Numbered from the stretch's first letter, positions 16,162-35,086 are shown. The stretch: DNA of 64,000 bases from a virus (IMGVR_UViG_3300034069_000533:1947-65946); one strand, 5' to 3'. Notes: a model not told the origin generated them from the letters alone. A program made the numbers and translations.

Positions 16162-16190
16162 TTGACGCCATGCGTTGCGCACGCTACGTT
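16162..16190 (+). promoter_or_regulatory. sigma70 promoter with spacer palindrome (copy 1)
   Basis: TTGACG-17 nt-TACGTT; ATGCGTTGCGCACGCTA at 16170-16186. Confidence 0.8.
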
Positions 16191-16216
16191 GGTGTCGTTG
16201 AGAAGGAAGCAGGCAA

Positions 16217-16627
16217 ATGTTTATCAATGATATGTCGGTGCTGGTTGGTCAGACGATTTCCCGCATTAGCCCGGTGGAAAAGGGCACCGAAGCCTTTTTG
16301 ATGGTCATGGATAATGGCAAGCGCTACGGCTTTTATCACATGCAAGATTGTTGCGAAACGGTAGAGATTGAGGATGTTGTTGGCGACATTGCCGACCTTA
16401 TCGGATCGCCGCTTGTGCGAGCCGAGGAACGTTCGCAGAAGGATGACAATGCTTGCGAAAGCGGCACTTGGACTTTTTATGAGCTTGCCACCAATAAGGG
16501 TAGCGTCACTATTCGTTGGTACGGTTCATCAAACGGATATTACAGCGAGTCCGTTGACTTTATTGCCCTTGCTGAAGGAGAAAAGTTTGGATATGGAATG
16601 GATGCTTTTAAAATGATTGATATTTAA
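16217..16627 (+). CDS. conserved phage hypothetical protein
   Basis: YH.QDCCE.V.IED..GD..DL.G.P...TWTFY...T.KG.VTIRWYG.SNGYYSESV pattern. Confidence 0.75.
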   Translation: MFINDMSVLVGQTISRISPVEKGTEAFLMVMDNGKRYGFYHMQDCCETVEIEDVVGDIADLIGSPLVRAEERSQKDDNACESGTWTFYELATNKGSVTIRWYGSSNGYYSESVDFIALAEGEKFGYGMDAFKMIDI

Positions 16628-16631
16628 TTAC

Positions 16632-16656
16632 AAAGCGCCGCAAGGCGCTTTTTTTT
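16632..16656 (+). terminator. intrinsic terminator (GCAA loop family)
   Basis: AAAGCGCC-GCAA-GGCGCTTT plus T-run. Confidence 0.9.
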
Positions 16657-16660
16657 GTGC

Positions 16661-16689
16661 TTGACTGTATGAGTTGCGCACGCTATGTT
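16661..16689 (+). promoter_or_regulatory. sigma70 promoter with spacer palindrome (copy 2)
   Basis: TTGACT-17 nt-TATGTT; ...GAGTTGCGCACGCTA. Confidence 0.8.
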
Positions 16690-16715
16690 GGTGGCGTTAA
16701 GAAGGAATAAATACA

Positions 16716-16889
16716 ATGGATAAAAGAGTTACTTATCTTGTTTCCTTTAACAAAGGTGATGCCTCTTGCTGCGCCGCGCCGGAAGGTAAGACATGCACAG
16801 AAGTTTGCGAATTTATTTGTGGTTATCGTCCTAGCGAATGCTATGCCAATTTTAGTTTCTGGCTTGGCGTTGACGCGGAGGGCGTGTAA
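16716..16889 (+). CDS. small Cys-rich hypothetical protein (57 aa)
   Basis: ATG after AAGAAGGA; below ORF-track cutoff. Confidence 0.55.
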   Translation: MDKRVTYLVSFNKGDASCCAAPEGKTCTEVCEFICGYRPSECYANFSFWLGVDAEGV

Positions 16890-17014
16890 TGCAAGTCGTG
16901 TGCGAGCCGAACGGCAGCTATTACGTCCTTAACGATGACGACGAACGCGTTGCAGGGCCGTTTGACAATGAGGACGACGCTTGGGACGCGCTTGATAATT
17001 TGGTTGAAGAATAA
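16889..17014 (+). CDS. small acidic protein (41 aa)
   Basis: TAATG overlap; ends before terminator. Confidence 0.55.
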   Translation: MQVVCEPNGSYYVLNDDDERVAGPFDNEDDAWDALDNLVEE

Positions 17015-17016
17015 AC

Positions 17017-17038
17017 AAAGCCCCGCAAGGGGCTTTTT
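17017..17038 (+). terminator. intrinsic terminator (GCAA loop family)
   Basis: AAAGCCCC-GCAA-GGGGCTTTTT. Confidence 0.85.
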
Positions 17039-17160
17039 CTTTGCCTACATCACATTGGCACACGTTTCGTTGAATTTTTTTCACTTGCGCCAAATGCAAT
17101 CGCGCTGCACACTCCATCCCGTCAGCAACGACGCTGACTTGAAAAGAAGGAATACAACAC

Positions 17161-17592
17161 ATGGGTTTTTTCCGTAACCTCGTTGGCGCCGGTACGCGTG
17201 AGATTGCCAAGGTGCAGAACCGCGATTTGCTTGAGGGCATCGTGAATGCCGCCACCTACGTTGCGGCCGAGGGCGGTATTTCCCGCAGCGAGGCGGATCA
17301 GCTTGCCGTGTCGCTCAGCACCAACAAGGCGCTTGCCGCTTTCGCGCCGAGTGAGGTTTCCGCGCTGGTCAGCAAGGTCCGCGAGCAGATTGAGAATAGC
17401 CCGCGCATGGCCAAGCTGGCGATTAAGAAGGAGGTTGAGGAGTGCGGCAATAATCCTGAGTGGGGCATGACCATTGTTGCCGTCGCGGCTGACGTGGCCG
17501 ACAGCGAGGGCGGTATCAGCGACGCCGAGGTTGCCCGCCTGCGGGAGATTTGCACTTGGGCGAAGCAGAGCCCGTCCGATCACGGGTTTTGA
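17161..17592 (+). CDS. terB: TerB-family protein
   Basis: K..NRDL.E.IV......A.EGGIS..E and VA.SEGGIS..E...L duplicated TerB motifs. Confidence 0.75.
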   Translation: MGFFRNLVGAGTREIAKVQNRDLLEGIVNAATYVAAEGGISRSEADQLAVSLSTNKALAAFAPSEVSALVSKVREQIENSPRMAKLAIKKEVEECGNNPEWGMTIVAVAADVADSEGGISDAEVARLREICTWAKQSPSDHGF

Positions 17593-17861
17593 TGTTCGGG
17601 CGCTTTAGCGGTGGGGGAATGGCCGCGCTCGCGGTCATTTTCCTAGCCCTGGCAGCGTTTTGGGCAACCAGAGCCATTGCTGACTTCCTGTTTATTGCTG
17701 GCGCTGTCTATCTAGCGTGGCGAGCGCATGTGGCCCGCATGGCGCAGAAGAATGCAGAGATTGCCAAGCTGCGGACTCAGCTTGGCATGGTTACGGATAA
17801 GGTTGACGCGGCGCCACGGCTCCGCGCGTTTGTCGCGTCCCCAAAGGAGAAGCAAGCATGA
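17592..17861 (+). CDS. membrane protein with coiled coil
   Basis: TGATG overlap with terB; two TMs. Confidence 0.6.
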   Translation: MFGRFSGGGMAALAVIFLALAAFWATRAIADFLFIAGAVYLAWRAHVARMAQKNAEIAKLRTQLGMVTDKVDAAPRLRAFVASPKEKQA

Positions 17862-18064
17862 GTGACGACAACGACGCGTTTGCTGAGGGGCGCGAGGCTT
17901 ACGATGCTGGCCAAAGCGAGACTAGCAATCCCTATCCAGACGACAGCGAAGATCACCTTAGCTGGAATGACGGATACCGCGAGGCGCTAGAGGAAGACGG
18001 GGAGGATGATGACGACGAAGATGAGGATGAGGATGAAGACGGCGAAGATGAGGACGAAGACTGA
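17858..18064 (+). CDS. Rmf-like small protein with acidic D/E tail
   Basis: AF.EG..AY.AG.....NPY.......W..GY.EA aligns with the RMF GY.AG..G...CPY...W..GW pattern. Confidence 0.5.
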   Translation: MSDDNDAFAEGREAYDAGQSETSNPYPDDSEDHLSWNDGYREALEEDGEDDDDEDEDEDEDGEDEDED

Positions 18065-18070
18065 TTAGGG

Positions 18071-18099
18071 AAAAAGGCGCCGCAAGGCGCCTTTTTTTT
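18071..18099. terminator. bidirectional terminator (GCAA loop family)
   Basis: AAAAAGGCGCC-GCAA-GGCGCCTTTTTTTT between convergent genes. Confidence 0.9.
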
Positions 18100-18658
18100 A
18101 TCCAATCCAAGTGTCAGTGTAGCTCATTTCATATACCGTGACTGACGTAGCCGCGTTATTGTTAAGCGCACCAAACACTTCGTTAACGCCGTGGTGTTCG
18201 TAATCGGCCGTGACGTTTTGCGTGATAGTGCCGTAAGTATGCCCATCAACGCCAAACACCAATTTGCCGGGTGTCCAATCCAGCGTGCATTTGTGCGGCT
18301 GGCTTTCGTCCAAGCCGGAATAGGTGGCAGTCCGGTAGCCGTCGCCACCTGTGGCGGTTTTGTGGTGCGCCGCGCCGTAGGCCACGCCCTTGTTGATTTC
18401 GGCTAAGTCCAATTCCTGACCGGGCCATTTGTCGTTCGCTGGCCAGAGCATAATGGCCGGGCCAGCCACGTTACCCTTGAGCGCGGCGGTAATCTCATAA
18501 TGACCGTAGCCTTCGCCTGCTGCGGCGCCCCATGGATTCTGCATCATGCCAGCGTTGCCGCGAAGCGTCACCTGACCGGCCACGCTGGCGTCAATCTTGC
18601 CCCATGTGTGGTTTAGCTGACCGACGCCATGAGAAAAAGTTTCAAAAAAATTAGCCAA
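18098..18658 (-). CDS. stand-alone glycoside hydrolase family 16-like protein
   Basis: GYGHYE, GPA..LWP...WPGQELDLAE (ExDxxE), H...LDWTPG...F.VDG; probable TTG start at 18658, 8 nt after AAGGA. Confidence 0.75.
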   Translation of the reverse strand: MANFFETFSHGVGQLNHTWGKIDASVAGQVTLRGNAGMMQNPWGAAAGEGYGHYEITAALKGNVAGPAIMLWPANDKWPGQELDLAEINKGVAYGAAHHKTATGGDGYRTATYSGLDESQPHKCTLDWTPGKLVFGVDGHTYGTITQNVTADYEHHGVNEVFGALNNNAATSVTVYEMSYTDTWIG

Positions 18659-18667
18659 TGTCAAATT

Positions 18668-18693
18668 CCTTATGTAAGCGGGCTTACATAAGG
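18668..18693. promoter_or_regulatory. perfect 12-bp inverted repeat overlapping the GH16 Shine-Dalgarno
   Basis: CCTTATGTAAGC-GG-GCTTACATAAGG. Confidence 0.6.
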
Positions 18694-18863
18694 CACGGCG
18701 TTATTAAAGCGTAAACCCTAAGACTTTATTAATCCTCTAGCAATAAGATTGCTTATTCCCAACCTTGCGTTTTGTTGTTGAAGTTTCTTCAACCTATGGG
18801 TACAAAGGTTGCGGGCAGACGGAATGAGCCGCGAGGCCCAGCAACAAAGGACAGAGAAGCGAA

Positions 18864-19298
18864 ATGGCTACCATCAATGGCAACAATAGCGCCAACACCC
18901 TGACTGGCACGTCCGGTGCAGACTTCATGGTTGGTTATGCCGGCAATGACGTGCTGTTTGGCGGCGCTGGCCAGGATGAGCTTTACGGCGGCAGCGGCGC
19001 GGATACGCTGGCTGGCGGCACCGGGCATGACAAGCTGTATGGCCAGAGCGGCGCGGATGTGTTCCGCTTCACCATGGGCGATGGCCTTAGCGGTGACGAG
19101 ATTATGGACTTCAGCCGCGCCGATGGCGATAAGCTTAACTTCGTCGGCGTGTCTGAACGCACGGTGACGCAGACGAAGAACGCTTATGGCGACGTGGAAA
19201 TTCATTGGGGCGCGGGGCCGGGCGTCATTGGCCCGGAGCATGTCACGCTGCATGGCGTACATGAGTTTCTGACCGCGACCGACTACGTTTTCGGCTGA
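18864..19298 (+). CDS. RTX/hemolysin-type Ca-binding repeat protein (no catalytic domain)
   Basis: GxxGxDxLx nonapeptides, D.I.DF....DKL, terminal TDYVFG. Confidence 0.85.
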   Translation: MATINGNNSANTLTGTSGADFMVGYAGNDVLFGGAGQDELYGGSGADTLAGGTGHDKLYGQSGADVFRFTMGDGLSGDEIMDFSRADGDKLNFVGVSERTVTQTKNAYGDVEIHWGAGPGVIGPEHVTLHGVHEFLTATDYVFG

Positions 19299-19306
19299 GC
19301 CAGAAA

Positions 19307-19330
19307 AGCGGCGGGAGCAATCCCGCCGCT
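19307..19330. terminator. terminator hairpin (GCAA loop) between convergent genes
   Basis: AGCGGCGGGA-GCAA-TCCCGCCGCT, A-run on the 5' side. Confidence 0.75.
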
Positions 19331-19664
19331 ACAGCATGCCGGTTGCGTCCTGCTTGCGCGTATTAAGTTTGGGCTGGACCGGGCGCGTGCCGGGATAACG
19401 AGCGGGGTCGGGATAATACTTCCCGTCGAATATCAGCCAGAAATCCGCATCGCGGAATATGTTGCCCTGCCAATCCTGCCGGACCCATGAGGCGTACATG
19501 ACAGCTTCGCCCGCGACAATGATCGCATTGCAGCCGTTGACCGTTCCGGTATAGGCGCCTGCCGGTGGCGCATTGTGTGCCACCGGCTGACCGCGAGGAT
19601 ACAACCTTTCCCGCATTGTCACCCGGCCAGATTTAGCGCCTTGCTGGCGGGTGGTTTTGGTCAT
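19329..19664 (-). CDS. hypothetical protein
   Basis: ORF coupled to upstream minus-strand gene. Confidence 0.55.
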   Translation of the reverse strand: MTKTTRQQGAKSGRVTMRERLYPRGQPVAHNAPPAGAYTGTVNGCNAIIVAGEAVMYASWVRQDWQGNIFRDADFWLIFDGKYYPDPARYPGTRPVQPKLNTRKQDATGML

Positions 19665-19966
19665 TACTCGCTCTCGGTAAACTGCTTGTAAGCTAACACG
19701 TTTTCCATCGTCAGCGTTCCCGGCGGAACCTCCGTCGCGGAATAGATAGTGCGGATTAGCTCAGCTTCCTTGGTGGCGGTCGTGGTGCTGTATTCCGCGG
19801 CCAACAACGCGTGATATTCAGCCGCGCGCTCAGCGCAAAAAACGGCAGGATGCTGGCTCAGCAGCACAACAGCCTTGACCGGCGGGCCAGCGCTCATGCC
19901 TAGCTCAGTTTTATAAACAATCTGATATTCATACGATACCAGCCAAGACTTCGTGTCCAACATCAT
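19664..19966 (-). CDS. hypothetical protein
   Basis: ATG after GAAGGAAG RBS. Confidence 0.6.
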   Translation of the reverse strand: MMLDTKSWLVSYEYQIVYKTELGMSAGPPVKAVVLLSQHPAVFCAERAAEYHALLAAEYSTTTATKEAELIRTIYSATEVPPGTLTMENVLAYKQFTESE

Positions 19967-20055
19967 GGTATGCTTCCTTCTGCTTGTTCGCTGCATGTAA
20001 GCTGTGTTGCGCGATAGTTGAAGCCAGAATCGTGCGGCACATTGAAATTTTTTGC

Positions 20056-20084
20056 TTGCGTGCGAATTGGCGATGACGTAGGCT
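20056..20084 (+). promoter_or_regulatory. sigma70 promoter; palindrome core CGTGCGGCAC lies just upstream (20031-20040)
   Basis: TTGCGT-17 nt-TAGGCT then GTTGAGAAGG RBS. Confidence 0.55.
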
Positions 20085-20108
20085 GCTGGCGTTGAGAAGG
20101 GAAAACAA

Positions 20109-20309
20109 ATGATCCATCAGCGTGCGGAGGCCGTTATTGCTCAGCTTAAATTAAGCTATATGCGCAGCATGTTTGACGGAACAGCCATTATGGCTGCGGT
20201 TCGGCTGATTGACGACATGAAAACAGAGCTAGAGCGAGAAGCTGTTAGCGCGGCACGAGCCAGAGACGACGCAAGCCGTCAGCGCTATCCTGATACAACC
20301 GGACAGTAG
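20109..20309 (+). CDS. hypothetical protein
   Basis: First gene after promoter. Confidence 0.6.
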   Translation: MIHQRAEAVIAQLKLSYMRSMFDGTAIMAAVRLIDDMKTELEREAVSAARARDDASRQRYPDTTGQ

Positions 20310-20320
20310 GGAGAAAACCG

Positions 20321-20896
20321 ATGAAGATTTTGGGTTGGCTGTTTAATCATTCGCGCAAGGCGCGGGACAAGATGAGTCATGCCAAGATGGTTGAGTCTTG
20401 GAATAATCGCGTGGCGCAAGCGGACAAAGAAAAGGCCAAGCGCGAAGCGGCGCCTCGTCTACATGGCCCGTACCGTCCGGCCATGGATGGCCGCACCCGG
20501 CCATCGCACTACAGCGCCAGCCAGCCCCGCAGGCGTGATGACAGCCTGCCGGACAGCGGGCCGGACTACCTCAACCCGGCCAACCCGCTAAGCCCCCTGA
20601 GCCCCTTCTCTGTGTATGGCTTGGGTAACAGCGACACGCCAAGCACCGACACCGACCGCGAGCGCGACCGGCCAGCCCCTACGCCCGCGCCCGCCCCGGA
20701 GCCTTAGCGTGCGGCGCCATCGCATAGCCACTCGCACGGCTATTCGTTCAAGAGCGACAGTACCGACAGCCTAAGCAACGGAAGCGGCAGCAGCAATAGC
20801 AGCAGCTTTGATTTTGGTTCGTCTAGCAGCAGCAGCGACAGTTCATTTAGCAGCAGCAGCGATAGCGGTTCGTCCAGTTTCAGCAGTGGGGAGTAA
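20321..20896 (+). pseudogene. Ser/Gly-rich-tail protein interrupted by one in-frame TAG (20705-20707)
   Basis: Frame stays open after TAG for 62 codons (RAAPSHSHSHG...SSSSDSGSSSFSSGE) to TAA at 20894-20896, 4 nt before the next ATG. Confidence 0.6.
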
Positions 20897-20900
20897 GGCA

Positions 20901-21164
20901 ATGAATAAGATTGTAATTATCGGGCTGGCCGCGCTGACGCTGGCCGGGTGTGACGCGCGAACCGTTCACATCAACATTGATCCAAGCAAGGCGACGTATA
21001 GCCGCGACAACCGCACCGGGCTTTGTTTTGCTGCGTTCGGTCGGGCCAAGGGCGGCAGTTGGAGCGATGTTGCCGACAGCCTGACAGTTACCAACGTGCC
21101 GTGTTCGGCCGAGGTTATGGCGCTTGTGCCGAACGGCCAGCGCGGGCCGGGTAGCTTGCGATAA
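20901..21164 (+). CDS. small lipoprotein
   Basis: MNKIVIIGLAALTLAGC lipobox. Confidence 0.7.
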   Translation: MNKIVIIGLAALTLAGCDARTVHINIDPSKATYSRDNRTGLCFAAFGRAKGGSWSDVADSLTVTNVPCSAEVMALVPNGQRGPGSLR

Positions 21165-21197
21165 CCGCGCCTTACCGCAAATTAAAGGAATTAACAA

Positions 21198-21599
21198 ATG
21201 CAGAACCTTGTTGACGACGCCATTGCTTTCCGCCGCGCCACTGACCTGCCGGTGAATGACTTGCCTACGGTAATTCCCAAGGCGAATATGCGGCTGCATA
21301 CCAAGCTAATTATTGAGGAATTACACTTAGAGTTGTTCCCCGCAATGGAGGATGGCGACTTGCCGGCCATCGCGGATGGGATTGTTGACGTGATTTACTT
21401 TATGATGGGGATGGCGGCCGAGTATGGCTTGCCGGTGGGCGAGGTCTGGAAGCTGGTCCAGTCTGCCAACATGGCCAAGGTGGACCCAACAACCGGCAAA
21501 GTTGTGCGCCGAATTGATGGGAAGATTCTTAAGCCAGAAGGATGGGTCAGTCCCGACGACGCCATTAAAGCGCTAGTATTATCCCGCATGAAAGGGTGA
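21198..21599 (+). CDS. MazG-like NTP pyrophosphohydrolase
   Basis: IEEL..EL..A...D...IAD...D..Y, V..ANM.K, GK.LKPEGW..P. Confidence 0.8.
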   Translation: MQNLVDDAIAFRRATDLPVNDLPTVIPKANMRLHTKLIIEELHLELFPAMEDGDLPAIADGIVDVIYFMMGMAAEYGLPVGEVWKLVQSANMAKVDPTTGKVVRRIDGKILKPEGWVSPDDAIKALVLSRMKG

Positions 21600-22228
21600 T
21601 TTCCATGTTTGTATTTGGTAGCGACGGCGCTGATACTCTGGCCGGTAGCCAGGGCTATGACAGGATCATGGCTGGCGGCGGCAATGACTTTATCCGTAGT
21701 TACGCACCGGCCGATCCGATGCTTGGCCAGACTGACGCGCGCATGGCTGTGGCCGATGGCGCGGATGCCATCGCTGCCGGATCGGGCAATGACACCATCT
21801 ATAGCGGCGGCGGCAATGATACGGTTTATGGCGATTACGGCAATGACTACATCAATGCTGGCACCGGCAACGATGTAATTAGCGGCGGGCTTGGCAATGA
21901 CACGTTTGCCTTTGGCGCGATCATGACTTCGCCCGGCTCGTTTATGTATTCCGGCCTTGATCGCGTTACCGACTTTACGCAGGGCGATGATGTTATTGAT
22001 TTGCGTGGCTACTCGACAAGCTACTATGGCAATCCTGCGGTTACTTTCATTGGCAACAATGAAGTTATCCATAGCGATCATGCTATGGTTGGCTTCCACT
22101 ATGACGGCAATAACACAGTTATTGATGTTATGGCGGGTAGCTCATACAACACGTCGCACGAACCGTCAGCACAGATAGTGCTAAATGGCCATATAGATTT
22201 GCATGCAACTGACTTCATTTTTGCTTAA
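21596..22228 (+). CDS. RTX/hemolysin-type Ca-binding repeat protein with serralysin-like C-terminus
   Basis: GGGNDxI repeats, D.VTDF.QG.D.IDL, terminal TDFIFA. Confidence 0.85.
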   Translation: MISMFVFGSDGADTLAGSQGYDRIMAGGGNDFIRSYAPADPMLGQTDARMAVADGADAIAAGSGNDTIYSGGGNDTVYGDYGNDYINAGTGNDVISGGLGNDTFAFGAIMTSPGSFMYSGLDRVTDFTQGDDVIDLRGYSTSYYGNPAVTFIGNNEVIHSDHAMVGFHYDGNNTVIDVMAGSSYNTSHEPSAQIVLNGHIDLHATDFIFA

Positions 22229-22271: not shown

Positions 22272-22300
22272 TTGACGGCATTCGTGCGGAACGTTATGTT
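22272..22300 (+). promoter_or_regulatory. sigma70 promoter with spacer palindrome (copy 3)
   Basis: TTGACG-17 nt-TATGTT; TTCGTGCGGAACGTTA. Confidence 0.75.
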
Positions 22301-22326
22301 GGTTGCGTTGAGAAGGACGCAGGAAA

Positions 22327-22488
22327 ATGCTCGAAACAATCGTTTGGTTTTGGCTTGAAGATCGCCCTGAATTTAATCGCACAGAGCGTGTCACGGCCAG
22401 AAACATGACTGAGCTTTTTGACAAGATTCTGAAGCTTAGGGGCGCAAACCAGCTTTATCGTTTTTATTTTGTGAAAAATGTTGGTTGA
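22327..22488 (+). CDS. small hypothetical protein (53 aa)
   Basis: ATG after GAGAAGGA; stop overlaps next -35. Confidence 0.55.
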   Translation: MLETIVWFWLEDRPEFNRTERVTARNMTELFDKILKLRGANQLYRFYFVKNVG

Positions 22489-22513
22489 CAAGTAGCGTTT
22501 CGCACGCTATGTT
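22485..22513 (+). promoter_or_regulatory. sigma70 promoter with spacer palindrome (copy 4)
   Basis: TTGACA-17 nt-TATGTT; TAGCGTTTCGCACGCTA. Confidence 0.85.
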
Positions 22514-22563
22514 GGTGTCAGAGAGAGCGGCTAACCCGCCTCTCTAGAGAAGGAAAGCAGAGC

Positions 22564-23418: not shown

Positions 23419-23442
23419 AAAAGCGCCGCAAGGCGCTTTTTT
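23419..23442 (+). terminator. intrinsic terminator (GCAA loop family)
   Basis: AAAAGCGCC-GCAA-GGCGCTTTTTT. Confidence 0.9.
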
Positions 23443-23446: not shown

Positions 23447-23475
23447 TTGACCTTATGCGTGCGGCACGCTACGTT
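23447..23475 (+). promoter_or_regulatory. sigma70 promoter with spacer palindrome (copy 5)
   Basis: TTGACC-17 nt-TACGTT; GCGTGC-G-GCACGC perfect 6-bp arms. Confidence 0.85.
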
Positions 23476-23501
23476 GGTGTTGTTGAGAAGGAACACTCCA
23501 A

Positions 23502-25407: not shown

Positions 25408-25436
25408 TTGACCATTAGCGTGCGGCCCGCTAAGTT
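25408..25436 (+). promoter_or_regulatory. sigma70 promoter with spacer palindrome (copy 6)
   Basis: TTGACC-17 nt-TAAGTT; TAGCGTGCGGCCCGCTA. Confidence 0.85.
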
Positions 25437-25466
25437 GTCTGTGTTGAGAAGGAAGGAACACAGACA

Positions 25467-26521: not shown

Positions 26522-26677
26522 ATGACCAACGAAATGCGCGACGGTTATAACGCTGGCTACATGGGCGAGGGGCTTTGCAACAACCCTTACAAGGGTGCGG
26601 AGTCAAAGGCTTGGGAGAAGGGTTATAAGAAGGCTTGCGCTGAGCGTGGCGTTAAGGCGACTGTTGAGGCGGAATAA
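26522..26677 (+). CDS. Rmf-like small protein (51 aa)
   Basis: DGYNAGYMG....NNPY......W.KGY..A matches the RMF pattern. Confidence 0.5.
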   Translation: MTNEMRDGYNAGYMGEGLCNNPYKGAESKAWEKGYKKACAERGVKATVEAE

Positions 26678-26690: not shown

Positions 26691-26719
26691 TTGACGCTGA
26701 ATGTGCCGCACGGTATATT
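26691..26719 (+). promoter_or_regulatory. sigma70 promoter with spacer palindrome (copy 8)
   Basis: TTGACG-17 nt-TATATT; AATGTGCCGCACGGTA. Confidence 0.85.
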
Positions 26720-26746
26720 CAGCGTCAGAAAGAAGGAATAGACACC

Positions 26747-26995
26747 ATGGCCGCTTTCGTCGCCAAAAAGCTTTTTCAGGCTGGCAACACTCCGGTTCCT
26801 AATGGCTACGGCCTTTGGCGTGATGGCGAGTTTTTCGCCACCATTCGCCCCGGTGTCTATTTCGACGCGCTTTGCTTCACGGACCTTAACGATGAACAGC
26901 GCGGGCGTAAGGTTCGGCGCGTCCTTAAGGCTAAGCTTGGCTTCAATATGAAGATGATGGATATGCTGCCAATCATCCGGCAGGAATACGCTTAA
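26747..26995 (+). CDS. hypothetical protein
   Basis: AAAGAAGGA RBS. Confidence 0.65.
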   Translation: MAAFVAKKLFQAGNTPVPNGYGLWRDGEFFATIRPGVYFDALCFTDLNDEQRGRKVRRVLKAKLGFNMKMMDMLPIIRQEYA

Positions 26996-27015
26996 AGCCC
27001 CGCAAGGGGCTTTTT
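26994..27015. terminator. bidirectional terminator (GCAA loop family)
   Basis: AAAGCCCC-GCAA-GGGGCTTTTT between convergent units. Confidence 0.85.
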
Positions 27016-29326: not shown

Positions 29327-29640
29327 GCTGATTGCCCTTTATTTCGCGCCCTGATTGCGGCAATGTCGGCAATCTTCTTTGTGTCGCCACGCAATTTGGC
29401 GACATGCTCAACAGGGCCGTATTTATCAGTCAGCACCGCACCGGCTGTAATGGCCAGCACTTTTTTATTCAGAGCAATATCAAAGTGGACCCATGAGGCT
29501 TTAGGCGGCTGTTGCAGCCAACGACGCTGGACGCCTATGCGGTCAGCCATGGCTAGCAATTCGTCTAAACTGTCGGCCCACATATGACACATTATCATGC
29601 GTCCAAATGGGTGGCGCACATCGTCAACGTATACGGTCAT
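29323..29640 (-). CDS. DUF4031-like protein
   Basis: MTVYVDD...FGRM.MCHM.AD...EL.AMA..IG..R.W.Q....HFDI. Confidence 0.8.
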   Translation of the reverse strand: MTVYVDDVRHPFGRMIMCHMWADSLDELLAMADRIGVQRRWLQQPPKASWVHFDIALNKKVLAITAGAVLTDKYGPVEHVAKLRGDTKKIADIAAIRARNKGQSA

Positions 29641-29882
29641 TTGGATTTTGCCTTAATTGCCTCGGCCCATTGCAGCACGCTTGCGTCAAATACTTTTTCC
29701 ATGCCAATTTTTGTAATTGGCCAACCCGGTTTATTTTTGCTGGCCGTTTCGGTTAGCCAGCCGACAGCTTCATTTTTGGTCCTTGCATACGTTATGCCAA
29801 TTTGGTTTTCTGTATAATTCACATTGCCAACATGCATCTGCATGCAGGCATTGCCAACGTAAACGCCTTCTTCGTTTTCCAT
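29637..29882 (-). CDS. hypothetical protein
   Basis: GAGGGA RBS, coupled operon. Confidence 0.55.
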   Translation of the reverse strand: MENEEGVYVGNACMQMHVGNVNYTENQIGITYARTKNEAVGWLTETASKNKPGWPITKIGMEKVFDASVLQWAEAIKAKSK

Positions 29883-29892
29883 ATTAATTCCC

Positions 29893-30123
29893 TCAATATT
29901 TATTGCGTTCATCCGGCCCGTGATAGCCGGTGCCGCGATCCATACTGTAACTCATGTCACACCGCTTACACGTCACGCTTGACGACATGAGATAACCAAC
30001 GCTGGCTGGACGCCGCATAAATGCAGCGCGTCGCGTCGGTGTAACAGAAAAAAATGCGGTCGCCTCATTCCCGCCGCAACGCACGCACTCAAAGCGCAAT
30101 TTGAAATCTGGCGTCTCGTTCAC
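29893..30123 (-). CDS. Zn-ribbon-like protein
   Basis: CxxC...CxxC; GTG after AGGAG. Confidence 0.55.
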   Translation of the reverse strand: MNETPDFKLRFECVRCGGNEATAFFSVTPTRRAAFMRRPASVGYLMSSSVTCKRCDMSYSMDRGTGYHGPDERNKY

Positions 30124-30335
30124 TTTTCCAACTCCTTCAGCGATTCCGTCATCCAATGCCGCAACGCACGCTCAGCCGTTTCCATAGCCTCTTGCTCGGT
30201 GCCTTCGCTAACGGGCTGGACGCGGTTGAATAGGTGATAGCGGTAAGCACCGCCCTCGCGGATGACGCTGGCGCAGCAAATGCCGTTAAGAAAACCGCAT
30301 TTGTAATTGTTCCAGGTTTCCCACCGGAGTTTCAT
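30120..30335 (-). CDS. hypothetical protein
   Basis: ATGA-type overlaps. Confidence 0.55.
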   Translation of the reverse strand: MKLRWETWNNYKCGFLNGICCASVIREGGAYRYHLFNRVQPVSEGTEQEAMETAERALRHWMTESLKELEK

Positions 30336-30670
30336 TTTGCGTTCCTTCTGGTAATCTTGCGCGCCTCACGCTGACGCTTTTGCACATCATCCCACGGTTT
30401 GTCACGACGAATGCCGGGCGTTCCGGGGCGCTCCCACTTTGGCAAATTTAGCAGTGTGTGGAATGTCTGCGGCTCAGGCTTGTCATATAAAAATGAGCGC
30501 GGCATTTGAAAATGCTTATGAATTTGCCACGCAGATTTGCCATTTCTGTAAGCTAAAGGAGTATCAATACTAGTTCCGTCTTTACAGAAAGAGCGAATTA
30601 CAGCATCGTAATCAATCGAAATGCTGCCAATAACGATAATTTTTTGTCTGTTTTTAACTTCTTCGTTCAT
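30332..30670 (-). CDS. hypothetical protein
   Basis: ATG at 30670 after GAAGGAG, first gene after promoter copy 9. Confidence 0.6.
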   Translation of the reverse strand: MNEEVKNRQKIIVIGSISIDYDAVIRSFCKDGTSIDTPLAYRNGKSAWQIHKHFQMPRSFLYDKPEPQTFHTLLNLPKWERPGTPGIRRDKPWDDVQKRQREARKITRRNAK

Positions 30671-30692
30671 TGCTTTGCTCCTTCTGTAGCTC

Positions 30693-30721
30693 ATATTACC
30701 GTGCCGCACACTGCAACGCAA
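30693..30721 (-). promoter_or_regulatory. sigma70 promoter with spacer palindrome (copy 9), upstream of the relaxase-containing gene run
   Basis: Minus strand TTGCGT-17 nt-TAATAT; AGTGTGCGGCACGGTA. Confidence 0.75.
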
Positions 30722-30729
30722 CACCTAAT

Positions 30730-31173
30730 TTATCGCTGGCTGCGTCGGCTTGTGCGCTCTGCCAGCCGGGCTAGCCTGTCATCAACACTGGCCGGTGTTG
30801 GTGCTGGCTGCGGCGCAGGGATAGGGGCGGGCGCCGGGCGAGGCTCAGGGACGTAGGTTGGCGCGGGAAGGGGCATCTTCTGGATGCGCTGTTTTGTTTT
30901 TTTTGTTTTCCACCACGTTTGACGAGCAATTTTAGCACTAATATTATTTCCATTAGCGTCAGTAAGTCCCATTTTATTTAACTCAATAGATATTTTGTTC
31001 CAATTTGGTTGCTTGATTCCGTAAATTGCTTTAGCAAATTCTTTGTAATTATCAATCATCCACCTATGCAAAGGGGACATTATACCTGAGCCGCCAGAAT
31101 TTGCAGCATTTTTAAAAACATCAAAATCGAAAGGTTTTTTGTTTAACATTAAATTATTCCTATTTTTAAACAT
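30730..31173 (-). CDS. putative StbA/relaxosome-accessory-like DNA-binding protein
   Basis: SPLHRWM..NY.EF......PNW..I..EL...G..D.NG......RQTWW pattern, recalled from mob regions of alphaproteobacterial plasmids. Confidence 0.4.
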   Translation of the reverse strand: MFKNRNNLMLNKKPFDFDVFKNAANSGGSGIMSPLHRWMIDNYKEFAKAIYGIKQPNWNKISIELNKMGLTDANGNNISAKIARQTWWKTKKTKQRIQKMPLPAPTYVPEPRPAPAPIPAPQPAPTPASVDDRLARLAERTSRRSQR

Positions 31174-31715
31174 TGTTTGTATACGTCGTTATAAGATGGA
31201 TTTTTATTGTTTGTATTGTATATTTGATATTTAATAAAATACTCATAAAGTGTTTGACAAAAATCTCCTTTTTCGTCTTTTTTGATTTCTATTAATTCTT
31301 CTCTGTGTTCTCTTAAAAAATTAATAAATGGAGAGCTTGATATTTTAAAATATATTTTTTCTGATGTATTTTTATATTGATTAATTAATTTATTTTGACT
31401 TTCTAAAAATAAAAATACTTTTTTGCTATACGATACTCTCAGCAAATACAAAATTGGAATAATTGCTTCTTTATCTAAATGATTTCTTTTTATGCAATTA
31501 ATTTGTCCTGAAGTTGGTACTAAATTAAACACATTGTCTGGACCGTTTTTTGATCTAGGCCAAACGTGATCTAAAATCATATGCTCAAAACTTAATTTTC
31601 TTCCGGTCCAAAAATCTACTCCTTTATGGGCAAAATGCATAGCTTTCCGCACAGCATGGCTTTGCATATTTACAATGCCGGCTTCTGGAAACCAAAAATT
31701 AAAATCAAATTCCAT
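31149..31715 (-). CDS. HNH endonuclease (AT-rich)
   Basis: LDHVWPRSKNGPDNVFNLVPT...IN..K. Confidence 0.8.
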   Translation of the reverse strand: MEFDFNFWFPEAGIVNMQSHAVRKAMHFAHKGVDFWTGRKLSFEHMILDHVWPRSKNGPDNVFNLVPTSGQINCIKRNHLDKEAIIPILYLLRVSYSKKVFLFLESQNKLINQYKNTSEKIYFKISSSPFINFLREHREELIEIKKDEKGDFCQTLYEYFIKYQIYNTNNKNPSYNDVYKQCLKIGII

Positions 31716-31886
31716 GCGCTAACTATGCTAAAAGTGTCGCAGGTTGTCGCGTCACATAATCGTGAGTTGTCTCAACCTGTCGCAAGCTGTCATATAGCGC
31801 GCCGAGTGAGGGGAAGTAATAGAAGACTTCACTCGTTTTATCTGCTTTGGTTCCAACGCTATAAACCGTTCTGAAAGAAGGAAGTT
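31716..31886. other. candidate oriT / divergent control region
   Basis: Three TGTCGC direct repeats (31735, 31745, 31778); IRs CAGGTTG/CAACCTG and CGAGTGA/TCACTCG; TGTCATATAGC at 31788; between divergent mob/par-like genes. Confidence 0.35.
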
Positions 31887-32693
31887 ATGGGCAAACTGAC
31901 ACCCGACAATCCGGCCAACGTCGCTGAGGTTTCGCTAAGCGATGGCGAGCCAGCTAGCGTGCTGATGATCCGCGCCGGGCGCGGCAATAGCGGCGGGACT
32001 ACCGCGCTGAATGCGACGATTGAGCTAGCCTTGCGCGAGGGGCGTAAGCCCGTGGTGCTGGACGCGGCGCGCAATCCATCGCTGTCCGCGATCTATCCTG
32101 ACACCGCTTTCCGGCCAGCGTCGCATTCGATTGGCGACGTGAAGGAGGCCATTACCTCTGGCGTGCTGGACGTGATGGTTGAGGAAAGCCGCAGCGGCGT
32201 TATTGACCTTGGCGGCGGTCAGGACGACACGCTAGTTGATTATATGCTCGATATTGATTTGGTTAAATTCTGTCAGTCGGTTGGCGTGCGTCCGGTGTTT
32301 TTGGTCAGCTTTGGCCCGCAGTTGGATGATTTTGAGCATGCGCTAGAAATTAAGCGTCGTGGCGTATTTAGCGGCGCTGACGTATTACTTGTGCAAAACG
32401 AAGGTGTGCTGCGACGCGGCCAAGACCCTGATCGCGTCTTTGGAGAAATTCAGCGTAATTCCGATTTTATCAATTGGGTTACTGTTGACAACGCTTGCCC
32501 GCTCTACATGGAAACGCTTGCTTGCCTTGAAGAAGTGCGCAAGCTTGGTCTGAGCCTGTCCGATGCGGCAGCGAACAAACCCGGTCGGGACGGCAAGAAG
32601 ATTGGCATTACAAAGGCTTGGACCGTCAAGACTTGGCTTAATGATTGGGCGCTCAGCTTCCACGAAAATGAGTGTGATGAGCGAAGGGTTTAA
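31887..32693 (+). CDS. ParA/MinD/StbB-like P-loop protein with degenerate Walker A
   Basis: GRGNSGGTT, VVLDA..N.SL, VIDLGGG, LV.NEG. Confidence 0.7.
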   Translation: MGKLTPDNPANVAEVSLSDGEPASVLMIRAGRGNSGGTTALNATIELALREGRKPVVLDAARNPSLSAIYPDTAFRPASHSIGDVKEAITSGVLDVMVEESRSGVIDLGGGQDDTLVDYMLDIDLVKFCQSVGVRPVFLVSFGPQLDDFEHALEIKRRGVFSGADVLLVQNEGVLRRGQDPDRVFGEIQRNSDFINWVTVDNACPLYMETLACLEEVRKLGLSLSDAAANKPGRDGKKIGITKAWTVKTWLNDWALSFHENECDERRV

Positions 32694-32697
32694 TTAA

Positions 32698-33291
32698 ATG
32701 CCTTTTGCCGCAACGTTTGATCCAAAAGAATATAAAGATAAAAGATTTGGTACGCTGGTCGGTCAAGGAATAGAAAAAAATATAAATTCTGTTAGGTGTT
32801 TTTTATTTAAATGCGACTGCGGCGCAGAATCTTGGCGAGCAACCCATAGATTAAAAGCTATGGGTAAGAATTCTGGATGCGACACATGCAGAAAAAAGTT
32901 TGTTAAAGGCTATCAAAGACAAAGAAAAATTTTATCTGAAAGCAAAAATTGGAAAGGCAAAGGAAGTATACCGGGCAGAATGCTTACTTTGCTTATTATA
33001 GCTGCAAAAGCCAGAAACATATCAGTAGAAATAAATATCTCAGACTTAGACGAATTATGGACAAAACAAAATGGTAAATGTGCGTTAACAGGAAGAATAT
33101 TAAATTTAAGTGGAAATCTAAATGGAAAATTAATTGTGGGCACGGCTTCGGTTGACCGAATTGACTCATCTAAGGGATACACAAAAGAAAATATACAATG
33201 GGTGCATAAAGATATAAATATGGCAAAAAGAGCTTTAAATAACAAAGAATTTATCTCTTTATGCAAGGAGGTTGCAAATAACAATGAATAA
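32698..33291 (+). CDS. HNH-type homing endonuclease (AT-rich)
   Basis: C.CDCG..., SGC..C N-terminus; Q.GKCALTG, SVDRIDSSKGY...NIQWV...IN.AK. Confidence 0.85.
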   Translation: MPFAATFDPKEYKDKRFGTLVGQGIEKNINSVRCFLFKCDCGAESWRATHRLKAMGKNSGCDTCRKKFVKGYQRQRKILSESKNWKGKGSIPGRMLTLLIIAAKARNISVEINISDLDELWTKQNGKCALTGRILNLSGNLNGKLIVGTASVDRIDSSKGYTKENIQWVHKDINMAKRALNNKEFISLCKEVANNNE

Positions 33292-33805
33292 AATTCCATA
33301 CGTCCACAGCAATTACGAAAGAAAAAAACAAGATGATTATCAAACCATAGATGATCGTTGTATTAAAGCGCTAATTAGCAAATGGGACATTAGGGGCAAA
33401 AAGATTGTTGATTGCTGCGCTTCGCATGGCAGCGGCATTGTAGATCATCTTTGCGCCGCTGGTTATGACGCCAGCGGAGCAAAGGATGCTTTTGGCAGTT
33501 ATATCGCTGAATGGATTGTGACTAATCCGCCATATGAACGAGACTCAGTTGACAGGATTGCCAATGAATGTCTAAGGCGGCTGAAGTCTGGCGAGGTTGA
33601 TGGCGTCGCTTTCTTAATGCGAGCAAATTGGGACTTGGCTAATAAGCGTGCCAAGCTTTTTGTTTTTCCGTGGTACGCCTGCCAGATTAGAATGCGTTTT
33701 CGTCCGTGGTGGAGCGAGGAGCGCAAATCCCAACCAATTCATAATTTTGTTTGGCATATCTGGCAAAGATCAGAATTTGACCCAACCATCAAATACTATC
33801 CATGA
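33284..33805 (+). CDS. DNA amino-methyltransferase (N6-adenine type)
   Basis: R...D.Y.T, DCCASHGSGI (SAM motif), IVTNPPY. Confidence 0.8.
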   Translation: MNKIPYVHSNYERKKQDDYQTIDDRCIKALISKWDIRGKKIVDCCASHGSGIVDHLCAAGYDASGAKDAFGSYIAEWIVTNPPYERDSVDRIANECLRRLKSGEVDGVAFLMRANWDLANKRAKLFVFPWYACQIRMRFRPWWSEERKSQPIHNFVWHIWQRSEFDPTIKYYP

Positions 33806-33814
33806 GGCGGAACA

Positions 33815-34420
33815 ATGGTTGATTTAACCGCTTACATGCCGGTGCCGGGATATAGGCCCAAGCCAAAGGGAGCCAAGCCAATGGCCGCACCTAAATTGGT
33901 TTCTAACCAACCATCGTCGGTTGTTCCGCCAAAGAGGCTTGCCATGACTAAAACCGACGATGCAGCGCCAACATTAAAGGCGCAAGTTGAAACGCTGGCC
34001 GATAGAGACGGAATGCCAGAGGATGAGCCGCTTAGGCTTATTATAGTTTCAGTCGCAGATAAAATAGACCGGCTAGAAAAACTGCAATCTGATTACGGCT
34101 CAGGTACACAGGATAAAGTTGCTGCTGCCGCACATAAAGCGGTGTCCAGTCAGGTTAACGCTATTCGCTGGCGCATCGGGCTATGGCGTTGGGCGCTGAT
34201 GGGTTGCGCCGCTTCGGTTATTTTATTGCTCGGTTATGAAATTGGCGTGCGATCCAGCGTGCAAACCGAGTTCGGCCCGATGCCCGCACGCCTTACCAAA
34301 ATCATGCCTATTCAATCATGGGAAGCGCAATTTAACGCCTGTCGCGTGCAACAGCCGGTTGGCGGGGTTGAATGGTGCCTGTTGCCGTTAGTGACAAAAT
34401 ACCCGTCTATTGTGGAATAG
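33815..34420 (+). CDS. membrane-anchored hypothetical protein of the mob/par cluster
   Basis: Coiled coil plus one TM; GAGG RBS. Confidence 0.55.
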   Translation: MVDLTAYMPVPGYRPKPKGAKPMAAPKLVSNQPSSVVPPKRLAMTKTDDAAPTLKAQVETLADRDGMPEDEPLRLIIVSVADKIDRLEKLQSDYGSGTQDKVAAAAHKAVSSQVNAIRWRIGLWRWALMGCAASVILLLGYEIGVRSSVQTEFGPMPARLTKIMPIQSWEAQFNACRVQQPVGGVEWCLLPLVTKYPSIVE

Positions 34421-34436
34421 CTCACGTTTTTGTTAC

Positions 34437-34465
34437 TGGACGCATAGCGTGCGGCACGATAAGTT
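34437..34465 (+). promoter_or_regulatory. sigma70 promoter with spacer palindrome (copy 10)
   Basis: TGGACG-17 nt-TAAGTT; TAGCGTGCGGCACGATA. Confidence 0.75.
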
Positions 34466-34491
34466 AGTGACAGAGAGAAGGAGCAAATTAG

Positions 34492-34683
34492 ATGAATAGA
34501 ATGGAAAAAGCCGCTTTAAGCCATGCCGCTGAGTGGCTTCGCTATTCGCGTTCACCGCAAGCCAAGCTTGACTTTCAGGTTGACGTTCGGCGCCGCGAAG
34601 CGCTGACTCGTAAGCAGGGCCATATTCCGCAATGCGGGATATTGAAGTGCCATCCTGACTGCCCTTCACTCCGCTGCGATTAA
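34492..34683 (+). CDS. small hypothetical protein
   Basis: GAGAAGGAG RBS. Confidence 0.6.
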   Translation: MNRMEKAALSHAAEWLRYSRSPQAKLDFQVDVRRREALTRKQGHIPQCGILKCHPDCPSLRCD

Positions 34684-34694
34684 GGAAAAATAAA

Positions 34695-34853
34695 ATGACA
34701 TACGAAGCAGGCAAGACGGAACCGCAACAGCGCCTTGACGGGCGCTGGCTGGCTAAAGTCAGAGGCATTCCGTTAATGCATCATGATTATTCTAACGTAA
34801 TTTTTCCAACAAAAGACGCCGCTGAAAAAGCGATTAAGAAAGCAACAGAATGA
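34695..34853 (+). CDS. small hypothetical protein (52 aa)
   Basis: AAGGA RBS. Confidence 0.5.
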   Translation: MTYEAGKTEPQQRLDGRWLAKVRGIPLMHHDYSNVIFPTKDAAEKAIKKATE

Positions 34854-34999
34854 AGAAGCATAAAGGTATTTTTTATTTTGATACCCACAAATTAGCAGAG
34901 GATTATGCAATAAAAAACAATAAACCGACAGATAGAATTATATTATACGGGCTTGGATGGGCAATTCAGCTTTACATTTCTGGCCCGTATGTTGGATAA
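34850..34999 (+). CDS. small hypothetical protein (49 aa)
   Basis: ATGA overlap, ends at terminator. Confidence 0.5.
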   Translation: MKKHKGIFYFDTHKLAEDYAIKNNKPTDRIILYGLGWAIQLYISGPYVG

Positions 35000-35004
35000 A
35001 GATT

Positions 35005-35030
35005 AGGCCCCTTGCGGGGCCTTTTTTTTT
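35005..35030 (+). terminator. intrinsic terminator (inverted GCAA family, TTGC loop)
   Basis: AGGCCCC-TTGC-GGGGCCT plus T-run. Confidence 0.9.
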
Positions 35031-35057
35031 GCACATCAAAATTCACGTTTTTGTCAC

Positions 35058-35086
35058 TAGACGTACAGCGTGCTGCACGCTATGTT
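35058..35086 (+). promoter_or_regulatory. sigma70 promoter with spacer palindrome (copy 11)
   Basis: TAGACG-17 nt-TATGTT; AGCGTGC-T-GCACGCT perfect 7-bp arms; about 65-bp near-duplicate of copy 10. Confidence 0.8.

What the first reader, a model, noticed from the sequence alone, without database searches (positions are those of the whole stretch)
16162..35086. Regulon of 11 sigma70 promoters sharing a 17-bp palindromic operator (consensus about TAGCGTGC-N-GCACGCTA) in the -35/-10 spacer
Seen at 16162, 16661, 22272, 22485, 23447, 25408, 26466, 26691, 30721(-), 34437 and 35058, all with 17-nt spacers and the palindrome at the same offset, overlapping the first bases of the -10 box. A further core copy lies at 20031, just upstream of the 20056 promoter. 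Established: IncN CUP and IncW LDR repeats place repressor-controlled promoters in front of establishment genes for zygotic induction. Inference: one repressor (not identified in this window) silences a dispersed set of early/establishment genes and the relaxase-containing run (30721), giving a shared switch for infection, induction and conjugative entry. Part of the right arm (GCTA) may simply be the alphaproteobacterial -10 consensus.
Basis: partly seen in the sequence, partly recalled or inferred. Interest (0 to 1): 0.72.

Follow-up and report, generated by a model that had tools for sequence, protein, structure and literature searches.

The report
Shared operator in phage early promoters
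A 130-kb phage that also carries DNA-transfer (conjugation) genes drives about 35 short early-gene units, and its relaxase operon, from near-identical promoters that all hold the same 17-bp palindrome; this is most likely the binding site of one repressor, a familiar design seen here in an unusual host element.

Summary
However, they belong to a genome-wide set of 35 promoter-operator-leader cassettes. This scan already noted the other 22-24 copies on the other half of this genome (e1-1681017).

Each cassette has an A/T-rich upstream patch, TTGAC, a 17-nt spacer, TAnnnT, an AGAGAAGGA ribosome site and an ORF. In the spacer, G13 T14 and A20 C21 G22 are as invariant as the hexamers and are mirror-symmetric, while neighbouring positions vary. 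The arms show no compensatory changes, so a dimeric protein site fits and a hairpin does not.

A palindrome-blind search found the same cassette in four related phage lineages from other metagenomes. The core sat in the same register in most of these copies, against 0 of 193 control promoter matches.

The best reading is an operator that occludes RNA polymerase. The likeliest binder is a 76-aa Cro-family protein encoded about 4.6 kb before the window start, but binding is untested. No CI-type repressor was found.

The link to conjugative "establishment genes" is only an analogy:
- oriT was not located.
- The cassettes span 95 kb.
- No known establishment genes were detected.

This is a known kind of regulon (P1 C1, L5 stoperators, Reg576, PeSLs) in a new setting.

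The parts
16162..16216 (+). Cassette 1: TTGACG-N17-TACGTT with palindrome in the spacer, TTGAGAAGGA leader; drives a DUF7448 gene (16217-16627)
16661..16715 (+). Cassette 2; drives a 57-aa ORF (16716-16889)
20031..20041 (-). Palindrome core of a decayed minus-strand cassette (both hexamers lost), upstream of the minus-strand genes 19966-18098
20056..20108 (+). Weak promoter TTGCGT-N17-TAGGCT without the palindrome but with the family's TTGAGAAGG leader; drives 20109-20309
22272..22326 (+). Cassette 3; drives a 53-aa ORF
22485..22563 (+). Cassette 4, with a hairpin inserted in the leader; drives a 114-aa ORF and two more
23447..23501 (+). Cassette 5; drives a 150-aa ORF and four more
25408..25466 (+). 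Cassette 6; drives ORFs of 56, 70 and 202 aa
26466..26521 (+). Cassette 7; drives a 51-aa RMF-like gene (26522-26677)
26691..26746 (+). Cassette 8; drives an 82-aa ORF
30671..30721 (-). Cassette 9 (TTGCGT -35); drives the seven-gene run 30670-27018 that ends in the TrwC-type relaxase
34437..34491 (+). Cassette 10 (TGGACG -35); drives ORFs of 63, 52 and 49 aa
35058..35112 (+). Cassette 11 (TAGACG -35); drives an 81-aa ORF
16129..16156 (+). Intrinsic terminator (GCAA-loop hairpin plus T run) directly upstream of cassette 1. Similar ones lie at 16632-16651, 23419-23440 and 35005-35022, before cassettes 2, 5 and 11

Best explanation
The palindrome is the operator of one element-encoded, dimeric DNA-binding repressor, built into every early promoter of a roughly 130-kb phage that also carries a T4SS and a relaxase. 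Each cassette is a strong sigma70-type promoter followed by a roughly 20-nt leader with a strong ribosome site and a short gene unit. The operator is centred near -19, fills the spacer and reaches the first two bases of the -10. A bound dimer should therefore exclude RNA polymerase. When the DNA enters a cell without the repressor, all 35 promoters, including the relaxase operon promoter, should fire together. They should be turned down together as the repressor accumulates. The most likely binder is the 76-aa Cro-family HTH protein that is the first gene of the long early transcription direction (genome 127090-127320, about 4.6 kb before the window start on the circular map). Shown here: the anatomy, the constraint, the symmetry and the conservation in relatives. 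Inferred: protein binding, repression rather than activation, and the identity of the binder.
For: (1) 33 canonical copies plus 2 register variants were found. All lie in intergenic DNA, all point at an ORF of 51 aa or more, and the start codon sits at a fixed distance. (2) Information content: G13, T14, A20, C21 and G22 score 1.7-2.1 bits, equal to TTGAC and the TA of the -10. Positions 6-8, 16-18 and 23 score 0.04-0.73 bits, and position 9 scores 0.6. The profile is mirror-symmetric about position 17. Recent duplication or gene conversion alone would not leave this pattern. (3) The arms show no compensatory pairing. Positions 15/19 tend to deviate on one arm only: 16 Watson-Crick pairs against 19.5 expected. 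That fits a protein site. (4) Outside cassettes the core occurs at chance frequency, 10 against 9.1. (5) A PWM that ignores positions 7-23 found cassettes in related contigs from other samples. Five of 7 distinct sites carry CGT-N5-ACG in exactly the same register, and a sixth carries it shifted by one base. None of 193 blind matches in about 1 Mb of unrelated phage contigs carries it. (6) Pfam detected only three HTH proteins among about 190 ORFs: Cro/YdaS-like (76 aa), HTH_17 (62 aa) and a winged-helix protein (193 aa). Six-frame searches found no HTH_3 and no S24 domain. (7) The Cro-like gene is conserved at 50-83% identity, with a conserved recognition helix (TTVFKW), at the head of the early operon in the lineages L137, L139 and L140/141. 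In a more distant relative it lies divergent from a CI-type HTH_3 repressor, as in a lambdoid immunity region. (8) Its own promoter carries a conserved palindrome, ATCGC-N5-GCGAT, with the same half-site spacing as the cassette variant ATCGT-N5-ACGAT. (9) The top fold matches of the model are all-alpha Cro proteins such as N15 and Xfaso 1, but these matches are weak.
Against: No binding or expression data exist, and no RNA run holds this sequence. The Cro assignment rests on Pfam scores below the curated cut-offs (22.1 against 30 bits; 17.8 against 30.2) and on fold matches at E about 1 from a pLDDT-71 model. The palindrome in the Cro promoter differs from the cassette core at exactly the two most invariant positions (T14 to C, A20 to G), so it may belong to a different protein. 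A regulator of an unrecognised fold, or a host protein, cannot be excluded, because most ORFs have no Pfam match. The cassette is absent from the 22 kb examined of one relative (L149), and whether that phage has a Cro homologue is unknown.
Confidence: 0.45

Rival explanations
1. The site is a repressor operator, but the binder is not Cro. It would be an unidentified maintenance repressor of the element, the winged-helix or HTH_17 protein, or a host factor. Its role would be to keep the early genes silent in a carrier (plasmid or lysogen) state, as C1 does in P1. In that case the regulon would be a true immunity and zygotic-induction switch.
For: The anatomy and conservation evidence is the same as for the best explanation. 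Related phages have a CI-type repressor next to cro and a serine recombinase, so the lineage is temperate in origin. The element has a plasmid-like primase-helicase replicon, and no DNA polymerase gene was seen among the proteins scanned. The operon with the winged-helix gene is itself headed by a cassette variant. Most ORFs have no family match, so a novel repressor could be hidden.
Against: No HTH_3, S24, RHH or partition genes were found in this genome. The position that holds cI in a relative is taken here by the T4SS operon. The winged-helix gene sits between an S49 protease gene and an SPFH gene and looks like a local regulator. Strict promoter-plus-palindrome patterns found nothing beyond chance in 185,579 bacterial genomes, which argues against a host regulon.
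Confidence: 0.33
2. The palindrome is a positive promoter element. It would be a recognition site for an activator, a phage-modified RNA polymerase or an alternative sigma factor that marks 'own' promoters.
For: Nearly every strong promoter of the element carries it: 35 carry it, against 3 clear sigma70-like promoters that do not. It sits at a fixed register relative to both hexamers.
Against: The hexamers are already near consensus with an optimal 17-nt spacer and an A/T-rich upstream patch, so no activator is needed. MerR-type spacer activators use 19-20-nt spacers (own knowledge). RNA polymerase contacts are not two-fold symmetric. Three promoters of the same element, with similar hexamers and leaders, lack the site. 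The Pfam scans of the ORFs showed no sigma-factor domain.
Confidence: 0.08
3. The palindrome has no binding function. It would be carried along by mobile promoter cassettes (PeSL-like recombination joints) and kept alike by gene conversion, or it would act as a DNA or RNA hairpin.
For: Thirteen of 33 cassettes abut an upstream terminator. There are two leader subfamilies. The order of homologous units differs between this genome and L137. These features show that cassettes move and duplicate like PeSLs (PMC2839356, PMC4122927).
Against: Gene conversion would homogenise all positions, not only a symmetric subset. The arms show no compensatory changes. The palindrome lies upstream of the predicted transcription start, so it is not in the mRNA. 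The core is conserved in lineages whose primase-helicase proteins are only 52-68% identical to this element's, while the centre and flanks differ.
Confidence: 0.07

Closest known systems
Dispersed-operator regulons of temperate phages and phage-plasmids: P1 C1 (17 or more operators), phiC31 conserved inverted repeats, mycobacteriophage L5-type stoperators (PMC9283540; P1 and phiC31 from my own knowledge)
   Same: One short site is repeated tens of times across the genome and associated with early lytic transcription units, so that one protein controls them all.
   Different: Here the site is a symmetric 17-bp palindrome at one fixed register inside the promoter spacer of every copy. P1 and L5 sites are asymmetric, and L5 sites also act within transcription units. 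The repressor is not identified, and no CI- or C1-type gene is detectable.
PeSLs, the promoter-early stem-loop cassettes of T4-like phages (PMC2839356, PMC4122927)
   Same: Repeated 50-70-bp early-promoter cassettes, often joined to a terminator hairpin. They sit between small orphan genes in hyperplastic regions, and whole units are shuffled between relatives.
   Different: PeSLs are not described as carrying a palindromic operator. This element is not a T4-like phage. Only about 40% of the copies have the stem-loop/terminator half.
Reg576 establishment regulon of Bacillus plasmid p576, and the proposed CUP/ArdK system of IncN pKM101 (PMC6294495)
   Same: Several strong promoters share one repressor's operator. 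The repressor's own weaker promoter is controlled less tightly. The result is a pulse of expression on entry into a naive cell, a zygotic-induction-like behaviour.
   Different: Reg576 is an RHH protein that binds direct heptamer pairs at four promoters in a plasmid region proposed to hold establishment genes. Here there are 35 promoters spread over about 95 kb of a phage genome, the sites are palindromes, no known establishment genes were found, and oriT is unknown.
Lambda-type Cro and its 17-bp pseudo-palindromic operators; N15 Cro (PDB 6on0)
   Same: A small HTH protein is encoded as the first early gene. In a relative it lies divergent from cI. The operator is 17 bp and two-fold symmetric and overlaps early promoters.
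   Different: Lambda has six operators at two promoters, whereas this element would have about 36. Family membership is only weakly supported by sequence and fold scores.

Membership tests
Sigma70-type (housekeeping) promoter | -35 close to TTGACA, 17 +/- 1 nt spacer, -10 of form TAnnnT, positioned upstream of a gene | tested here: met
   TTGAC in 30-32 of 33 copies, T24 and A25 in 33 of 33, T29 in 26 of 33, and a 17-nt spacer in 33. An ORF with an SD follows every copy.
Sigma70-type (housekeeping) promoter | Transcription starts about 7 nt downstream of the -10 | not testable with these tools
   No RNA run holds the sequence.
Dispersed-operator regulon of a phage master repressor (P1 C1 type) | Many copies of one site, dispersed, overlapping lytic promoters | tested here: met
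   35 copies at a fixed register in promoters across genome coordinates 18-113 kb.
Dispersed-operator regulon of a phage master repressor (P1 C1 type) | An element-encoded repressor that binds the site and maintains a prophage or plasmid state | tested here: inconclusive
   No CI, S24 or HTH_3 gene was found. Only Cro-like, HTH_17 and winged-helix candidates exist. Binding cannot be tested here.
PeSL cassettes | Composite of an early promoter and a stem-loop/terminator | tested here: inconclusive
   About 13 of 33 copies have an upstream terminator-like hairpin with a T run; the rest have only an A/T-rich patch.
PeSL cassettes | They lie at the boundaries of gene gain, loss or replacement between related phages | tested here: inconclusive
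   Homologous cassette-gene units are in a different order and neighbourhood in L137 and in this genome. No closely related full genome was available to map breakpoints.
Conjugative-plasmid establishment regulon (Reg576; CUP/ArdK) | Controlled genes lie in the leading region next to oriT | tested here: inconclusive
   oriT was not identified. The cassettes are spread over 95 kb.
Conjugative-plasmid establishment regulon (Reg576; CUP/ArdK) | Controlled genes include anti-restriction, SOS-inhibition or ssb functions | tested here: not met
   Pfam scans of the cassette-driven ORFs found none. Hits were DUF7448, RMF, SpoU methylase, HNH, TerB, RTX repeats, RlaP and DUF4031.
Single-strand (Frpo-type) leading-region promoters | A long hairpin in ssDNA that rebuilds the -35 and -10 as duplex | tested here: not met
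   Only the 17-bp spacer palindrome is self-complementary, and its arms show no compensatory changes.
Cro family (P22_Cro / YdaS Pfam families; all-alpha Cro fold) | Sequence match above the family cut-off | tested here: not met
   YdaS_toxin scored 22.1 bits against a cut-off of 30, and P22_Cro scored 17.8 against 30.2. The fold hits are Cro proteins, but at E about 1.
Cro family (P22_Cro / YdaS Pfam families; all-alpha Cro fold) | First gene of the early operon, divergent from cI | tested here: met
   This holds in a distant relative. In this lineage the gene holds the same position, but the T4SS operon replaces cI.

The most novel reading that the evidence does not exclude
In a lineage of phages that replaced the cI/integration arm with a complete T4SS, a single Cro-type protein sits at a bistable node. 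Its promoter and the T4SS operon promoter are divergent and share overlapping -10 boxes, and a conserved palindrome covers both. The same protein also holds the operators of all 35 early units and of the relaxase operon. One small repressor would then decide between conjugative spread and the phage programme. It would give the element the same entry pulse whether it arrives by injection or by conjugation.
Probability: 0.18. Interest if true: 0.72.

Novelty: new variant of a known kind. Interest (0 to 1): 0.45.

Why it matters
If one protein controls all 35 cassettes, the motif gives a simple, sequence-readable marker for the complete early gene set of an uncultured phage family. These are mostly orphans and are likely host-takeover and counter-defence genes. 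Because the relaxase operon, but not the T4SS operon, carries the operator, the motif also gives a concrete and testable handle on how a phage that acquired conjugation genes wires DNA processing for transfer into its infection programme.

Tried and rejected
- Megablast of the region against the phage and plasmid collections, and tblastn of the relaxase against phages, gave no match.
- Exact-pattern scans were run for promoter plus palindrome in IMG/VR, for the promoter plus leader without the palindrome, in GTDB genomes and in JGI metagenomes. They returned only single, chance-level hits, and the PWM found no cassette in those loci.
- The search for related loci with the baseplate protein found no relative.
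- The genome search 'relatives' and 'handles' were not available for this record or for L138.
- Sequencing runs: no RNA holder is listed. The two DNA holders are from one plant-metagenome sample.
- Homodimer prediction for the Cro-like protein gave no verdict.
- A PDB sequence search for the Cro-like and winged-helix proteins found nothing significant.
- Rfam and tRNA scans of 15500-36000 found nothing.
- An oriT search with a pattern recalled from R388 gave only near-matches inside coding regions and was discarded as unreliable.
- I considered a restriction-modification or methylation site and rejected it, because the core is neither avoided nor enriched outside promoters.
- I considered a hairpin promoter of the N4 type and rejected it, because the hexamers are of sigma70 type and the arms do not covary.
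Full report
**What the element is.** The window is bases 1947-65946 of a single 129,946-bp virus record with terminal repeats, rated 100% complete, with 54% G+C. It encodes two gene sets.
- Phage morphogenesis genes: tape measure, baseplate J, and a scaffold/major-capsid module also seen in relatives.
- A conjugation set: TrbI/VirB10, a VirD4-type coupling protein and a TrwC-type relaxase.

The sequence is held by two runs of one plant-metagenome sample. Related proteins occur in Roseomonas/Teichococcus genomes, and one relative carries gcrA. These fit an alphaproteobacterial host but do not prove one.

**The observation.** The consensus palindrome with up to three mismatches occurs 8 times in the window against 0.57 expected.

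A position weight matrix built from the sites finds 33 copies in the whole genome. The other 22 are on the minus strand at genome 80.6-112.9 kb. A gapped search adds two register variants, at genome 80062 and 102781, giving 35 in all.

The other half of the family was already noted by this scan on the neighbouring window of the same genome (e1-1681017). My counts agree with that note.

**Anatomy.** Numbering from the T of TTGAC, a cassette contains:
- an A/T-rich patch at -9 to -5;
- TTGAC at 1-5;
- the palindrome at 9-25;
- the -10 TAnnnT at 24-29;
- a leader that reads AGAGAGAAGGA (22 copies) or TTGAGAAGGA (7 copies);
- a start codon about 20 nt after the -10.

All 33 canonical copies are followed by an ORF of 51-150 aa. 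About 13 are directly preceded by an intrinsic terminator. Four copies have a hairpin inserted in the leader.

In the window the cassettes drive the following:
- a DUF7448 gene;
- an RMF-like gene;
- several runs of small orphan genes;
- from 30721 on the minus strand, a seven-gene run ending in the relaxase.

**Is the palindrome constrained or just inherited?** G13, T14, A20, C21 and G22 are invariant or nearly so, at 1.7-2.1 bits, the same as the hexamers. Positions 6-8, 16-18 and 23 carry little information (0.04-0.73 bits), and position 9 carries 0.6. The profile mirrors about position 17. Duplication or gene conversion alone would not leave a symmetric subset fixed among variable neighbours.

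The two arms show no compensatory changes. At positions 15 and 19, deviation on one arm goes with consensus on the other. That pattern is expected for a dimeric protein site and not for a hairpin.

Outside cassettes the core occurs at chance frequency, 10 against 9.1.

**Relatives.** Pattern scans of IMG/VR, GTDB genomes and JGI metagenomes found only chance singletons. Relatives reached through the scaffold and primase-helicase proteins do carry the cassette.

A matrix that ignores positions 7-23 finds 7 distinct cassette-like sites in these contigs (L132/L152, L136, L137, L149). Five have CGT-N5-ACG in exactly the same register, and a sixth has it shifted by one base. None of 193 blind matches in about 1 Mb of unrelated phage contigs has it.

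L138 (primase-helicase 52% identical) has a copy with the same outer arms and an A/T centre.

In the L137 and L152 lineages positions 11 and 23 are T and A. In this genome they are mostly G and C, so both arms changed together between lineages.

One relative, L149, shows no cassette in 22 kb.

The order of homologous cassette-gene units differs between L137 and this genome. The units therefore move, as PeSLs do (PMC2839356, PMC4122927).

**Repressor or activator.** The hexamers, the spacer length and the upstream patch already make a strong promoter. The site fills the spacer and overlaps the -10. I therefore infer repression by occlusion.

Three sigma70-like promoters of the element lack the palindrome:
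- the T4SS operon promoter (genome 127342, TTGACG-N17-CATAAT);
- one at genome 125989;
- one in front of the terminase operon (genome 78182).

The palindrome is therefore not a general requirement of the polymerase. The T4SS operon is also wired differently from the relaxase operon.

**Who binds.** Pfam scans of about 190 ORFs and six-frame family searches detect only three HTH proteins, all outside the window. They find no HTH_3 and no S24 domain.

The 193-aa winged-helix protein lies between an S49 protease gene and an SPFH gene. It looks like a local regulator.

The 76-aa Cro/YdaS-like protein and the 62-aa HTH_17 protein are the first two genes of the long minus-strand early direction. Several points favour the Cro-like protein:
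- It belongs to a family of 86 representatives with a conserved helix TTVFKW.
- It is conserved at the same place in L137, L139 and L140/141.
- In a more distant relative it lies divergent from a CI-type repressor.
- In this lineage the T4SS operon occupies that divergent position.
- The AlphaFold model (pLDDT 71) most resembles all-alpha Cro proteins, but only weakly.

I rank this protein as the most likely binder, at roughly 45% of the total probability. Another protein acting as the repressor takes about 33%.

**The cro/T4SS node.** The inferred cro promoter (TTTATC-N17-GATTAT) and the T4SS promoter share overlapping -10 boxes on opposite strands. A palindrome, ATCGC-N5-GCGAT, conserved in three of four lineages, lies in the cro spacer and over +1 to +15 of the T4SS promoter.

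Its half-site spacing equals that of the cassette operator. It differs at the two most invariant cassette positions, so whether the same protein binds both is open.

A single-repressor regulon that includes the relaxase run is supported as a reading of the sequence. The establishment-gene analogy is weaker, for three reasons:
- The paper I read describes the pKM101 conserved regions only as possible ArdR/ArdK sites (PMC6294495).
- oriT could not be found.
- The controlled genes include no recognised establishment functions.

Reg576 is a worked example of it (PMC6294495).

**Verdict.** This is a real, strongly constrained and evolutionarily conserved promoter-operator cassette family. It combines two known ideas: dispersed operators of a phage master repressor, and mobile early-promoter cassettes. 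It does so in a phage lineage that carries a T4SS. The binder and the sign of regulation remain inferences.

Noticed in passing
L125:1396-1448 (genome 127342-127394, about 4.5 kb before the window start): The cro promoter and the T4SS-operon promoter are divergent and share overlapping -10 boxes. A conserved palindrome, ATCGC-N5-GCGAT (L125:1431-1445), lies in the cro spacer and at +1 to +15 of the T4SS promoter. The block is conserved in L139, L140/141 and partly in L137.
   Followed up: partly
L125:1144-1374 (-), compared with the gene tables: In a distant relative the Cro-like gene lies divergent from a CI-type HTH_3 repressor and is followed by gcrA. In this genome and three related contigs the divergent partner is the T4SS operon, and no CI-type gene is detectable.
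   Followed up: partly
window 22514-22563; L122:16570-16651; L123:976-1065; L123:16758-16835: Four cassettes have a 25-35-nt hairpin inserted between the transcription start region and the ribosome site, with loops such as CTAA or GCTAA. One cassette in relative L152 (position 4016) has one too. Function unknown; possibly mRNA 5' stabilisers.
   Followed up: no
window 17858-18064 and 26522-26677: Two small genes match ribosome modulation factor (RMF, PF04957) above the curated cut-off. One is driven by cassette 26466.
   Followed up: partly
L122:12165-12236 (genome 78111-78182, minus strand): A cassette-like promoter, TTGACC-N17-TAAATA, with the family's AGAAGGA ribosome site but no palindrome stands before a 134-aa gene and the terminase operon.
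   Followed up: no
window 16129-16156, 16632-16651, 17017-17036, 23419-23440, 26994-27013, 35005-35022: There are near-identical intrinsic terminators with a GCAA loop, in two sequence types (GCGCC...GGCGC and GCCCC...GGGGC). The terminators are therefore a repeat family as well.
   Followed up: no
window 30000-34500: A low-G+C stretch (43-45% against 54%) lies between the relaxase operon and the next cassettes. It holds an HNH endonuclease gene (31149-31715, minus) and ORFs without family matches. It is a candidate place for oriT or a foreign insertion, but nothing was identified.
   Followed up: partly
L123:14152-16758 (genome 100098-102704, minus strand): An operon of an S49/NfeD-like protease, a 193-aa winged-helix protein and an SPFH/Band-7 protein is headed by a cassette variant with a shortened spacing between the -35 and the palindrome.
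   Followed up: partly
window 18098-19966 (minus strand): A small island of minus-strand genes (one with a weak GH16 match) lies inside the plus-strand early region. Behind it is the decayed cassette at 20031.
   Followed up: partly
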